From assembly GCF_036507355.1 (NCBI RefSeq), contig NZ_AP027877.1: a stretch of DNA of 64,000 nucleotides, one strand, 5' to 3'. This DNA is from Escherichia coli. Lineage in GTDB: Bacteria > Pseudomonadota > Gammaproteobacteria > Enterobacterales > Enterobacteriaceae. Made by a program: the position numbers. This document shows, one piece after another, positions 50,501-53,500 of the stretch; within the stretch, counting starts at the first letter, position 1, and each line of letters starts with the position of its first letter.

Positions 50501-53500
50501 AAAACGACGCGGAAGGTGCTGAAGCCTGCATTAACGCCATCCGTGAACTGGCGAAGAAAGTGGATATCCCGGCAGGCCTACGCGACCTGAACGTGAAAGA
50601 AGAAGATTTCGCGGTTCTGGCGACTAATGCCCTGAAAGATGCCTGTGGCTTTACTAACCCGATCCAGGCAACTCACGAAGAAATTGTGGCGATTTATCGC
50701 GCCGCAATGTAATCATCATTCCAACAACGGCTGGCAAATTGTCAGCCGCTTTTTCAACTATCTCTGTAATCCTTGCCCGTAAATTCGTGATAGCCGTCGT
50801 AAAGCTGTTACCGACTGGCGAAGATTTCGCCAGTCACGTCTACCCTTGTTATACCTCACACCGCAAGGAGACGATCATGACCAACAATCCCCCTTCAGCA
50901 CGTGTTCAGCCCGGCGAGTATGGTTTTCCTCTTAAGTTAAAAGCACGCTACGACAACTTTATCGGCGGCGAGTGGGTCGCGCCTGCCGACGGTGAGTATT
51001 ACCAGAACCTGACGCCGGTGACCGGGCAGCTGCTGTGCGAAGTGGCGTCTTCGGGCAAACGAGACATAGATCTGGCGCTGGATGCTGCGCACAAAGTGAA
51101 AGATAAATGGGCGCACACCTCGGTGCAGGATCGCGCGGCGATTCTGTTTAAGATTGCCGATCGAATGGAACAAAACCTCGAGCTGTTAGCGACAGCTGAA
51201 ACCTGGGATAACGGCAAACCCATTCGCGAAACCAGTGCTGCGGATGTACCGCTGGCGATTGACCATTTCCGCTATTTCGCCTCGTGTATTCGGGCGCAGG
51301 AAGGTGGGATCAGTGAAGTTGATAGCGAAACCGTGGCCTATCATTTCCATGAACCGTTAGGCGTGGTGGGGCAGATTATCCCGTGGAACTTCCCGCTGCT
51401 GATGGCGAGCTGGAAAATGGCTCCCGCGCTGGCGGCGGGCAACTGTGTGGTGCTGAAACCCGCACGTCTTACCCCGCTTTCTGTACTGCTGCTAATGGAA
51501 ATTGTCGGTGATTTACTGCCGCCGGGCGTGGTGAACGTGGTCAATGGCGCAGGTGGGGAAATTGGCGAATATCTGGCGACCTCGAAACGCATCGCCAAAG
51601 TGGCGTTTACCGGCTCAACGGAAGTGGGCCAACAAATTATGCAATACGCAACGCAAAACATTATTCCGGTGACGCTGGAGCTGGGCGGTAAGTCGCCAAA
51701 TATCTTCTTTGCTGATGTGATGGATGAAGAAGATGCCTTTTTCGATAAAGCGCTGGAAGGCTTTGCACTGTTTGCCTTTAACCAGGGCGAAGTTTGCACC
51801 TGTCCGAGTCGTGCCTTAGTGCAGGAGTCAATCTACGAACGCTTTATGGAACGCGCCATCCGCCGTGTCGAAAGCATTCGCAGCGGTAACCCACTCGACA
51901 GCGTGACGCAAATGGGCGCGCAGGTTTCTCACGGGCAACTGGAAACCATCCTCAACTACATTGATATCGGTAAAAAAGAGGGCGCAGACGTGCTCACTGG
52001 CGGGCGGCGCAAGCTGCTGGAAGGCGAACTGAAAGACGGCTACTACCTTGAACCGACGATTCTGTTTGGTCAGAACAATATGCGCGTGTTCCAGGAGGAG
52101 ATTTTTGGCCCGGTGCTGGCGGTGACCACCTTCAAAACGATGGAAGAAGCGCTGGAGCTGGCGAACGATACGCAATATGGCCTGGGCGCGGGCGTCTGGA
52201 GCCGCAACGGTAATCTGGCCTATAAGATGGGGCGCGGCATACAGGCTGGGCGCGTGTGGACCAACTGTTATCACGCTTACCCGGCACATGCGGCGTTTGG
52301 TGGCTACAAACAATCAGGTATCGGTCGCGAAACCCACAAGATGATGCTGGAGCATTACCAGCAAACCAAGTGCCTGCTAGTGAGCTACTCAGATAAACCG
52401 TTGGGGCTGTTCTGATGTAAGAAGCTGGTCGCATCGGGTATTAATTGCCTGATGCGACGCTTACGCGTCTTATCATGCCTACGGGGACCTGACCGTAGGC
52501 CGGATAAGACGTACACGCCGCATCCGGCATAAACAAAGCGCACGTTGTTACAATTTACGTTTTAAACCTACGTGTGCAATAACCCAGACTACGCCAACAA
52601 AAGTGCGTTTCTGGGGCGTGTTTTGCCAGGAGTTTAATCTCGCGTTTCGATGGTGAGCGGGCAAACCAGACCGTAAATCACCATTGGTATTCCGAGGACA
52701 ATCAGCAATAAACGGTAGATTATTGAAGGTTTAATACGCTTAATCTGCATTGTGGATGTTTTACGGTTTTTAATCATAAATTTGGCCAATAGTTCCATTA
52801 TTTCAATATGATAAGCCTCGACCTGTTAAAAAGCCAGGCAGCACACTTCAGGAAGTATATAAAAAACAATATGTCGTTATATAAATAAGGAAATTGCACT
52901 GCATCATGGCATTTCATAATATGCGTTAATTGTTCTTTTTTATATTCTCTGAGGGAAATATGTTCCTGGACTATTTTGCACTGGGAGTGCTTATTTTTGT
53001 ATTTCTGGTGATATTCTATGGGATTATTATTTTACATGATATTCCCTACCTGATTGCTAAAAAACGTAATCATCCTCATGCCGACGCCATTCATGTTGCT
53101 GGTTGGGTGAGTCTTTTTACGCTGCATGTTATCTGGCCATTTTTGTGGATTTGGGCCACGCTTTACCGCCCGGAGCGGGGATGGGGAATGCAAAACCATG
53201 ACTCCTCCGTTGTGCAACTACAACAGCATATTGCCGGGCTGGAGAAACAGCTCGCCGACATCAAATCCTCTTCTGCCGAGTAATACTTATGGATTTACTG
53301 ATTATTTTGACCTATGTGGCTTTCGCATGGGCAATGTTTAAGATCTTCAAAATTCCCGTAAATAAATGGACCATTCCCACAGCGGCCCTGGGTGGAATAT
53401 TTATTGTCAGCGGTCTAATTCTGTTAATGAACTATAACCATCCGTATACCTTTAAAGCGCAAAAAGCGGTTATTTCTATTCCTGTTGTCCCACAGGTGAC

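What the first reader, a model, noticed from the sequence alone, without database searches (positions are those of the whole stretch)
52416..52959. Long AT-rich intergenic region between aldB and yiaW with a possible small-membrane-protein ORF
This 544-bp region contains REP elements followed by AT-rich DNA. On the minus strand, a 47-aa ORF (52634..52777) with a single hydrophobic helix resembles small membrane proteins, but it lacks a clear ribosome-binding site. The region could equally hold the yiaW promoter or a small RNA.
Basis: inference. Interest (0 to 1): 0.25.

Follow-up and report, generated by a model that had tools for sequence, protein, structure and literature searches.

The report
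Deleted relic of a membrane-protein gene
The small hydrophobic ORF between aldB and yiaW is what remains of a roughly 104-111-residue two-helix membrane-protein gene after a 171-bp in-frame deletion, and in E. coli it now evolves like unconstrained DNA, so it is an ordinary gene relic, not a new small protein.

Summary
The 544-bp aldB-yiaW spacer has a REP cluster followed by AT-rich DNA (GC about 0.32-0.35). A minus-strand ORF ends at 52634 (47 aa from ATG 52777, 54 aa from ATG 52798), has one hydrophobic stretch and no Shine-Dalgarno sequence.

An ORF this long is not itself unusual: 67% of shuffles of the spacer give one at least as long. Its ancestry is what matters. In E. whittamii, Escherichia sp. 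E1V33 and 28 of 5,426 complete E. coli genomes, the same site holds a 104/111-aa gene. That gene belongs to a widespread family with no Pfam model (169 clusters, confident two-helix model) and is under purifying selection (dN/dS 0.10-0.18).

The common E. coli form, including this window, lacks exactly 171 bp (57 codons) between two imperfect 15-bp direct repeats. This fuses helix 1 to the last nine residues and removes most of the family's conserved positions.

Among short forms, variable sites fall 11/5/12 by codon position (aldB 0/0/27). dN/dS is about 0.3-1.2, about 1.1-1.2 in the comparisons between the window-type and K-12-type haplotypes. The start codon varies, and one common haplotype has a stop at codon 2.

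The best reading is a decaying relic next to the yiaWV promoter. Interest is low.

The parts
50877..52415 (+). aldB (aldehyde dehydrogenase B), convergent with the relic ORF
   Evidence: ORF list. RefSeq annotation of the near-identical strain L001 and of MG1655. Variable sites in the last 300 bp fall 0/0/27 by codon position.
52416..52539 (.). REP cluster (BIME-like) just downstream of aldB
   Evidence: Inverted repeat at 52466-52484 / 52493-52511. Sub-threshold naRNA4 matches. Many copies per genome (vs 13).
52540..52633 (.). Conserved spacer between the REP cluster and the ORF stop codon (3' flank of the relic gene)
   Evidence: Nucleotide diversity 0.018, against 0.066 in the ORF. A similar sequence lies in the same position in E. 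whittamii L005. Function not determined.
52634..52798 (-). Relic ORF. It is 54 codons plus stop from ATG 52798, 47 aa from ATG 52777 (the homologous start), and 51 aa from TTG 52789 (PGAP, WP_001719070.1).
   Evidence: Homology to the 104/111-aa gene of L084, L004 and L005. dN/dS about 0.3-1.2 and codon-position counts 11/5/12.
52661..52675 (-). Deletion junction. A single hybrid copy (TACGGTCTGGTTTGC, codons 42-46) of the 15-bp direct repeat that occurs twice, 171 bp apart, in the full-length gene.
   Evidence: The repeats lie at nt 124-138 and 295-309 of the 336-nt long ORF, and the short ORF is exactly 171 nt shorter.
52799..52855 (.). Hypervariable stretch upstream of the relic ORF (its former 5' region)
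   Evidence: Highest diversity in the locus: pi 0.083, 16 variable sites in 57 bp, and one 1-bp indel haplotype.
52835..52863 (+). Position of the published sigma-70 promoter prediction for yiaWV. K-12 reads CAGACA-17-TATAAA. The window reads CAGGCA-17-TATAAA.
   Evidence: Shimada et al. 2014, PMC3946193, genomic SELEX with H-NS co-binding. Sequence read. The consensus scan did not call this site.
52856..52959 (+). Conserved yiaW-proximal region (-10 element, 5' UTR and Shine-Dalgarno GAGGG)
   Evidence: pi 0.026. Anti-SD duplex of -6.1 kcal/mol upstream of the yiaW start.
52960..53283 (+). yiaW (DUF3302 membrane protein), transcribed divergently from the relic ORF
   Evidence: Variable sites 5/2/17 by codon position.

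Best explanation
The ORF is the in-frame-deleted relic of an ancestral gene that lay tail-to-tail with aldB. That gene encodes a 104-aa membrane protein (111 aa from the upstream ATG) with two long helices joined by a conserved loop.

In the lineage leading to most E. coli, recombination or replication slippage between two imperfect 15-bp direct repeats removed exactly 171 bp (57 codons). The repeats sit in the same codon phase and encode Y-G-L-V-C and Y-S-L-V-R. The deletion fused most of helix 1 to the last nine residues.

Shown here: the fused frame stays open, but it has lost the loop motif and helix 2, and it accumulates amino-acid changes as fast as silent ones.

Inferred: the ORF no longer makes a functional protein. 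The remaining constrained function of the spacer lies in the flanking non-coding parts, namely the REP cluster at the 3' end of aldB and the yiaWV promoter and 5' UTR.
For: 1. Full-length gene at the same site.
- E. whittamii (L005), Escherichia sp. E1V33 (L004) and E. coli EC42405 (L084; PGAP WP_001064341.1, 104 aa) carry it between aldB and yiaW.
- 28 of 5,426 complete E. coli genomes cover at least 80% of the long-form DNA. About 3,770-3,800 carry the short form.

2. Exact 171-nt difference. The flanking repeats, TACGGTCTGGTTTGC and TACAGCCTGGTCCGC, lie 171 nt apart in the long form.

3. The parent is a real family.
- phmmer finds 169 clusters (50% identity) at E <= 1e-3, and 29 at E <= 1e-10. 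Typical members are about 100-125 aa and align across residues about 15-108.
- The AlphaFold model has mean pLDDT 89, with helices at 24-51 and 66-102.
- The nearest relatives, P0044 (50% identity) and P0049 (57%), also sit convergent with an aldehyde dehydrogenase gene.

4. Long forms are constrained. dN/dS is 0.10-0.18.

5. Short forms are not.
- Variable sites by codon position are 11/5/12, against aldB 0/0/27 and yiaW 5/2/17.
- Pairwise dN/dS is about 0.3-1.2, and about 1.1-1.2 for the comparisons between the window-type and K-12-type haplotypes.
- In the retained core, synonymous/non-synonymous counts are 3/8 in short forms and 8/1 in long forms (Fisher p = 0.0098).
- ORF diversity (0.066) approaches aldB third-position diversity (0.096) and exceeds that of the flanking non-coding segments (0.018-0.026).

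6. Signs of decay.
- The first start codon is ATG or GTG, and codon 2 is a stop in a haplotype seen in 4 of the 15 sampled E. coli sequences (14 strains plus the window).
- Frameshifted variants exist.
- Escherichia sp. MOD1-EC7003 (L003) has an independent deletion that removes the 5' half.

7. Four of the five nearly invariant family columns (G53, G66, G95, L96) lie inside the deleted segment.
Against: - The frame is open in nearly all of about 3,800 E. coli genomes, and PGAP calls it a protein in many of them. With only 28 variable sites, roughly one nonsense change would be expected by my own rough estimate (not a tool result), and one is seen. Openness is therefore uninformative, not contradictory.
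- The retained peptide still has a plausible membrane-spanning stretch.
- Some shallow pairwise comparisons give dN/dS of 0.3-0.5. These rest on 2-6 changes each.
- Only 14 E. coli strains plus the window were sampled, giving 8 haplotypes, and they were chosen for diversity.
- No direct expression data were examined. The absence of entries for this locus in the supplementary tables of one Ribo-seq study is weak evidence, because that file was truncated when stored.
- The Escherichia long forms also lack a Shine-Dalgarno sequence yet are under selection, so a missing SD does not prove that the ORF is untranslated.
Confidence: 0.8

Rival explanations
1. The short ORF is a functional single-pass small membrane protein (47-54 aa). 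On this reading it is a new function gained after the deletion and is maintained in most E. coli.
For: - The frame is open in most of about 3,800 genomes and is annotated by PGAP as a hypothetical protein in many.
- It has a hydrophobic stretch of TM length.
- The segment KRIKPSIIYRLLL is invariant in all variants seen.
- Some pairwise dN/dS values are 0.3-0.5.
Against: - There is no excess of third-position changes (11/5/12). The core synonymous/non-synonymous counts are 3/8, against 8/1 in the long forms.
- Radical substitutions occur inside the helix: G/V at 34, I/T/S/P at 37, C/R at 46, G36E.
- There is no Shine-Dalgarno sequence.
- The first start is ATG or GTG, and one common haplotype has a stop at codon 2.
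- The ORF is absent from the MG1655 RefSeq annotation and from the held Ribo-seq supplementary tables (truncated file).
- The ORF length is within chance expectation.
Confidence: 0.1
2. The region functions purely as regulatory DNA for yiaWV (sigma-70 promoter and H-NS-bound AT-rich silencer), and the ORF is a chance frame of no ancestry.
For: - Genomic SELEX places a constitutive RpoD promoter (CAGACA-17-TATAAA) and H-NS binding in the yiaW/aldB spacer (PMC3946193).
- GC is 0.32-0.35.
- ORFs of this length arise by chance in 67% of shuffles.
- The yiaW-proximal 104 bp are conserved.
Against: - The 'no ancestry' part is refuted. The ORF aligns end to end with both ends of a full-length gene (E = 1e-17 to 5e-24 by tblastn), with a clean 171-bp deletion junction.
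- The regulatory role of the adjacent DNA is compatible with, and forms part of, the best explanation.
Confidence: 0.07
3. The region encodes a small regulatory RNA, or a type I toxin-antitoxin-like hydrophobic peptide with an antisense RNA.
For: A small hydrophobic ORF without a Shine-Dalgarno sequence, lying in an intergenic region, superficially resembles type I toxins. REP-derived naRNA4-like matches are present.
Against: - No Rfam family reaches its gathering score. The only matches are REP-like, at 30-35 bits against a threshold of 59.5.
- No minus-strand promoter-like or terminator-like sites were found.
- The ORF sequence is demonstrably a deleted two-helix protein gene.
- It has only one copy per genome.
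Confidence: 0.03

Closest known systems
Full-length Escherichia hypothetical membrane protein (WP_001064341.1, 104 aa; 127-aa calls such as ERJG_02691 of E. coli M863) and its family (for example Franconibacter WP_024553640.1, 103 aa)
   Same: - Same locus, tail-to-tail with aldB and divergent from yiaW.
- Residues 1-46 and the last 8-9 residues are 78-98% identical to the E. coli ORF.
- The homologous start codon is the same.
   Different: The window ORF lacks 57 internal codons. These cover the end of helix 1, the conserved FG..T..WN loop and nearly all of helix 2 with its GLW.YS motif. The long forms are under purifying selection and the short forms are not.
Unannotated gene relics and pseudogenes created by deletion between short direct repeats in enterobacterial genomes
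   Same: - The deletion endpoints lie in an imperfect 15-bp direct repeat.
- Constraint is relaxed afterwards.
- Independent degradation has occurred in a sister lineage (L003), and the whole segment is lost in about 30% of E. coli.
   Different: The deletion is in frame, so no stop codon or frameshift flags it. Annotation pipelines therefore either skip it (MG1655) or call it a hypothetical protein.
Validated E. coli small inner-membrane proteins of 50 aa or fewer (the class found by the Storz and Hemm screens; recalled from general knowledge, not tested here)
   Same: Size of 47-54 aa, one hydrophobic helix, intergenic location.
   Different: No ribosome-binding site, no purifying selection, an unstable start, and no translation evidence located.
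REP/BIME elements and the REP-derived naRNA4 (Rfam RF02564)
   Same: The first 124 bp or so of the spacer contain REP-type palindromes repeated across the genome.
   Different: The scores (30-35 bits) are below the naRNA4 gathering score of 59.5. These are ordinary REPs, not the REP325 locus.

Membership tests
Uncharacterised two-helix membrane-protein family of about 100-125 aa (no Pfam model; alignment A3) | N-terminal basic/amphipathic motif (R/K-[LI]-x-x-[GS]-[ST]-hydrophobic-[FY]-[KR]-L) followed by helix 1 | tested here: met
   KRIKPSIIYRLLLI... is retained and invariant in all E. coli variants.
Uncharacterised two-helix membrane-protein family of about 100-125 aa (no Pfam model; alignment A3) | Conserved inter-helix loop (FG..[DT]..WN....G..AL), including the nearly invariant G53 and G66 | tested here: not met
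   The loop lies entirely within the 57 deleted codons.
Uncharacterised two-helix membrane-protein family of about 100-125 aa (no Pfam model; alignment A3) | Second long helix ending in the GLW.YS.F.P motif (nearly invariant G95, L96) | tested here: not met
   Helix 66-102 of the model is deleted. Only the hybrid Y-G-L-V-C/R-P junction remains.
Uncharacterised two-helix membrane-protein family of about 100-125 aa (no Pfam model; alignment A3) | Purifying selection on the coding sequence | tested here: not met
   Long forms have dN/dS 0.10-0.18. Short forms have about 0.3-1.2, and core synonymous/non-synonymous counts are 3/8 against 8/1 (p = 0.0098).
Functional bacterial small membrane proteins (about 50 aa or fewer) | A single predicted transmembrane helix | tested here: met
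   Maximum Kyte-Doolittle 19-residue mean is 2.53 (window) and 1.71 (K-12).
Functional bacterial small membrane proteins (about 50 aa or fewer) | Translation signals (Shine-Dalgarno sequence or a stable start codon) | tested here: not met
   Best anti-SD duplex is -2.0 to -3.3 kcal/mol (+0.6 for ATG 52750), against -6.1 to -8.5 for the neighbouring genes yiaW and aldB. The first start is ATG or GTG, and one haplotype has a stop at codon 2.
Functional bacterial small membrane proteins (about 50 aa or fewer) | Amino-acid-level conservation with a bias towards synonymous change | tested here: not met
   Variable sites by codon position are 11/5/12, not different from uniform (p = 0.22).
Functional bacterial small membrane proteins (about 50 aa or fewer) | Experimental evidence of translation | tested here: inconclusive
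   No entry for this locus in the held, truncated supplementary tables of Stringer et al. 2021. The supplements of Weaver et al. 2019 are not held.
REP/BIME repeats | Imperfect palindromic units of about 35 bp present in many intergenic copies per genome | tested here: met
   Inverted repeat with 19-nt arms. A median of 3 and up to 14 matching places per genome with the REP part, against 1 without it. naRNA4-like sub-threshold matches.
Pfam DUF3566 (name given by one UniRef record to the Franconibacter homologue) | A match to the Pfam profile | tested here: not met
   No DUF3566 hit for the long form, the short form or 93 family members, even at E <= 10 for eight of them.
Sigma-70 promoter of yiaWV | RNA polymerase holoenzyme binding and -35/-10 hexamers upstream of yiaW | not testable with these tools
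   Reported by genomic SELEX (PMC3946193). The hexamers are present in the window as CAGGCA-17-TATAAA. The consensus scan does not call this site.

The most novel reading that the evidence does not exclude
The most novel reading has two parts.

1. The deletion product is not dead. It would be a single-pass microprotein, made of helix 1 of the ancestral protein, that is still made in most E. coli, possibly from a leaderless or SD-independent mRNA transcribed divergently from yiaWV, and that has acquired a role of its own.

2. The parent is an undescribed family of two-helix membrane proteins with no Pfam model. It is repeatedly found tail-to-tail with aldB in Enterobacteriaceae, and its function might relate to aldehyde or alcohol stress at the membrane.
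Probability: 0.08. Interest if true: 0.4.

Novelty: new member of a known kind. Interest (0 to 1): 0.18.

Why it matters
The main value is for annotation.
- RefSeq treats this frame inconsistently. MG1655 and O157 genomes carry no feature here, while other strains carry 'hypothetical proteins' of 47, 51, 54 or 67 aa.
- Screens for small proteins could pick it up as a candidate membrane microprotein.
- Recognising it as an in-frame-deleted relic explains this inconsistency and removes a false lead.
- It is a clean example of how a deletion between same-phase direct repeats produces a pseudogene with no stop or frameshift to flag it.

A side product is an uncharacterised, widespread small membrane-protein family that has no Pfam model and is linked to aldB in several enterobacterial genera.

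Tried and rejected
- Rfam scan of 51500-54000 at E <= 1: only REP-like sub-threshold hits, no sRNA.
- Pfam and NCBIfam on the short and long proteins: nothing significant. Pfam on 93 family members: nothing consistent, and DUF3566 was not reproduced.
- PDB sequence search with the family profile: no hits.
- Consensus promoter/terminator scan: one plus-strand promoter-like site (52783-52812) and nothing on the minus strand, which is no more than the shuffles give.
- Literature:
  - Papers mentioning yiaW concern an IS1 insertion in the yiaW coding region and are not relevant to the spacer.
  - The Ribo-seq supplements were either not held or had no entry for this locus.
  - The enterobacterial intergenic-smORF survey (PMC11188072) has no entry matching this peptide in the held, truncated files.
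- ORF length as evidence: rejected, because 67% of shuffles give at least 54 codons.
- My first estimate of the deletion size (192 bp, from the difference in spacer lengths) was wrong. Direct comparison of the ORFs gives 171 bp.
- Pairwise dN/dS values involving L090 are invalid because the slice was misaligned. re-extracted the sequences in register.
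Full report
**What is in the window**

The window is E. coli DNA carrying yiaY, aldB, a 544-bp spacer (52416-52959), yiaW, yiaV and yiaU.

- The first 124 bp or so of the spacer are REP-type palindromes.
  - There is a 19-nt-arm inverted repeat at 52466-52511.
  - Three REP-derived naRNA4 matches score 30-35 bits, well below the gathering score of 59.5.
  - Including this part makes the spacer match a median of 3 and up to 14 places per E. coli genome. Without it, the spacer matches one place.
- GC then drops to 0.32-0.35.
- A minus-strand frame ends at 52634.
- MG1655 RefSeq annotates nothing here.
- The product has one hydrophobic stretch, and no candidate start has a Shine-Dalgarno sequence.
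- The ORF's length is not evidence for a gene: 67% of dinucleotide-preserving shuffles of the spacer contain an ORF of at least 54 codons.

**Where the ORF comes from**

A word-indexed protein search with the 54-aa product found only E. coli proteins of 47-95 aa. They share an invariant core and have variable N-termini, and a few are frameshifted.

To sample related genomes without bias toward the ORF, I fetched loci through YiaW and searched them with the ORF.

- Citrobacter and Pseudocitrobacter have aldB and yiaW adjacent, with a 155-335-bp spacer and no trace of the ORF.
- E. whittamii (L005) and Escherichia sp. E1V33 (L004) hold a frame about twice as long at the same place and on the same strand: MELLAKLMNNTSNTSTVQLKRIKPSIIYRLLLIGLGTPLVIYGLVCGILGMFGYDQVRWNDTVIHGLLALPAGLLAGLSVSVFLTVLIGTIACFGLWLYSLVRPLTIETRD.
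- The E. coli ORF equals residues 1-46 plus the last eight of this protein.
- 28 of 5,426 complete E. coli genomes also keep the long form. One example is EC42405, where PGAP calls it a 104-aa protein, WP_001064341.1.
- About 3,770-3,800 genomes carry the short form.
- About 1,600 genomes (B2-like) lack the whole yiaW-side segment.

At the DNA level the long ORF is exactly 171 nt (57 codons) longer than the short one.

- The missing segment is bounded by an imperfect direct repeat: TACGGTCTGGTTTGC at nt 124-138 and TACAGCCTGGTCCGC at nt 295-309.
- The two copies are 171 nt apart and in the same codon phase.
- The short forms carry one hybrid copy, at window 52661-52675.
- This is the signature of a deletion by slippage or recombination between short direct repeats.
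- The TGC/CGC (Cys/Arg) polymorphism at codon 46 among short forms matches the two repeat copies. It could reflect either different crossover points or a later transition. I could not distinguish these.
- Escherichia sp. MOD1-EC7003 (L003) has a different deletion that removes the start and the 5' half, so the gene has decayed independently there.

**The parent is a real gene family**

- An exhaustive phmmer search with the long form found 169 clusters (50% identity) at E <= 1e-3, and 29 at E <= 1e-10. Most are 100-125 aa and align over residues about 15-108.
- The alignment shows conserved motifs: an N-terminal basic motif, an FG..T..WN loop, and a GLW.YS.F.P C-terminal motif.
- The family has no Pfam, NCBIfam or PDB sequence match.
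- AlphaFold gives a confident model (mean pLDDT 89) with two long helices, at 24-51 and 66-102, plus short strands.
- The nearest relatives outside Escherichia are Franconibacter P0050 and two metagenome contigs carrying P0044 and P0049 (50-57% identity). The two metagenome-contig genes (P0044 and P0049) again lie tail-to-tail with an aldehyde dehydrogenase gene and, unlike the Escherichia genes, have a clear GGAG or AGGA Shine-Dalgarno sequence.
- Their N-termini align with residue 8 of the Escherichia frame.
- The deletion removes the end of helix 1, the whole loop and almost all of helix 2. This includes four of the five nearly invariant family columns.

**Is the short form still under selection?**

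I aligned the locus from 14 E. coli strains chosen across the identity range, plus the window.

| Segment | Diversity (pi) | Variable sites by codon position |
|---|---|---|
| ORF | 0.066 | 11/5/12 |
| 57 bp upstream of the ORF | 0.083 | n/a |
| Spacer between REP cluster and ORF stop | 0.018 | n/a |
| yiaW-proximal 104 bp | 0.026 | n/a |
| aldB, last 300 bp | 0.032 (third positions 0.096) | 0/0/27 |
| yiaW | 0.019 | 5/2/17 |

- The ORF counts do not differ from uniform (p = 0.22).
- Pairwise dN/dS among short haplotypes is about 0.3-1.2, and about 1.1-1.2 for the comparisons between the window-type and K-12-type haplotypes. Among the three long forms it is 0.10-0.18.
- In the core retained by both forms (codons 20-54 of the short form), short forms show 3 synonymous and 8 non-synonymous variable sites. 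Long forms show 8 and 1 (Fisher p = 0.0098).
- The first start is ATG or GTG. One haplotype, seen in 4 of the 15 sampled sequences, has a stop at codon 2.
- One nonsense change among 28 variable sites is about what I would expect under neutral change (my own rough estimate, not a tool result). The open frame in most genomes is therefore not evidence of selection.

**Other functions of the spacer**

- Shimada et al. 2014 (PMC3946193) report, from genomic SELEX, a constitutive sigma-70 promoter for yiaWV (CAGACA-17-TATAAA) and H-NS binding in the yiaW/aldB spacer.
- In the window this site is CAGGCA-17-TATAAA at 52835-52863.
- The -10 element and everything downstream to yiaW are conserved.
- I found no evidence for a small RNA or for minus-strand promoter-like or terminator-like signals.
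- I found no literature on translation of this ORF. The evidence of absence is weak, because the one supplementary file I could search was truncated.

**Verdict**

The ORF is membrane-protein-derived and its frame is conserved in relatives. But it is best explained as an in-frame-deleted, neutrally evolving relic of a 104/111-aa two-helix membrane-protein gene, lying next to the constrained yiaWV promoter region.
- Confidence is about 0.95 for the ancestry and deletion, and about 0.75-0.8 that the product has no function.
- This is a new instance of a familiar phenomenon, useful mainly for annotation. The uncharacterised, aldB-linked parent family is a minor side finding.

Noticed in passing
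window about 54421-55395 (minus strand); 1-bp deletion near 54590: yiaU (LysR-type regulator) is frameshifted in this strain by loss of one T from a T-run relative to K-12. PGAP marks it 'frameshifted' in the near-identical strain.
   Followed up: partly
L085 (EcPF18) and L086 (2022H048), downstream of aldB: About 30% of complete E. coli genomes lack the whole yiaW-side segment. aldB is followed by GH127/MFS/AraC genes or directly by araD/sgbU, and a Fic-family gene sits between yiaY and aldB.
   Followed up: partly
L084 (EC42405) 1978-2590: A sampled E. coli strain that retains the full-length 104-aa gene (EC42405) carries a hicA-hicB toxin-antitoxin pair inserted between aldB and that gene. 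Only this one strain was inspected, so it is untested whether the insertion is linked to retention of the gene.
   Followed up: no
L087 2039-2350, L101 144-458, L005 2507-2839: The parent protein family (about 100-125 aa, two long helices, 169 clusters at 50% identity) has no Pfam, NCBIfam or PDB match. It lies tail-to-tail with aldB in Escherichia and in the two metagenome contigs that carry its closest relatives (P0044, 87% identical to a Franconibacter protein, and P0049). One UniRef label, 'DUF3566', could not be reproduced.
   Followed up: partly
L003 about 2744-2842 (Escherichia sp. MOD1-EC7003): An independent, different deletion removes the start and 5' half of the same gene and keeps only the helix 2 and C-terminal part.
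   Followed up: partly
window 52356-52415 vs 52416-52959: The window looks like a recombination mosaic. Its spacer is 99.8% identical to strain L001, but the last 60 bp of its aldB match the O157-like strain L089 (100%) better than L001 (96.7%).
   Followed up: no
L083 (ET201) 4112-4818; L094 (2018-02-2CC) 1432-2129: IS1 elements have repeatedly inserted in, or deleted from, this neighbourhood. One removes everything from the spacer to yiaO. Another replaces yiaW onward.
   Followed up: no
window 52540-52633: The 94-bp stretch between the REP cluster and the ORF stop is markedly more conserved (pi 0.018) than the ORF itself, and a similar sequence occupies the same position in E. whittamii. 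Its function was not determined; it may be a shared terminator or 3' element.
   Followed up: no
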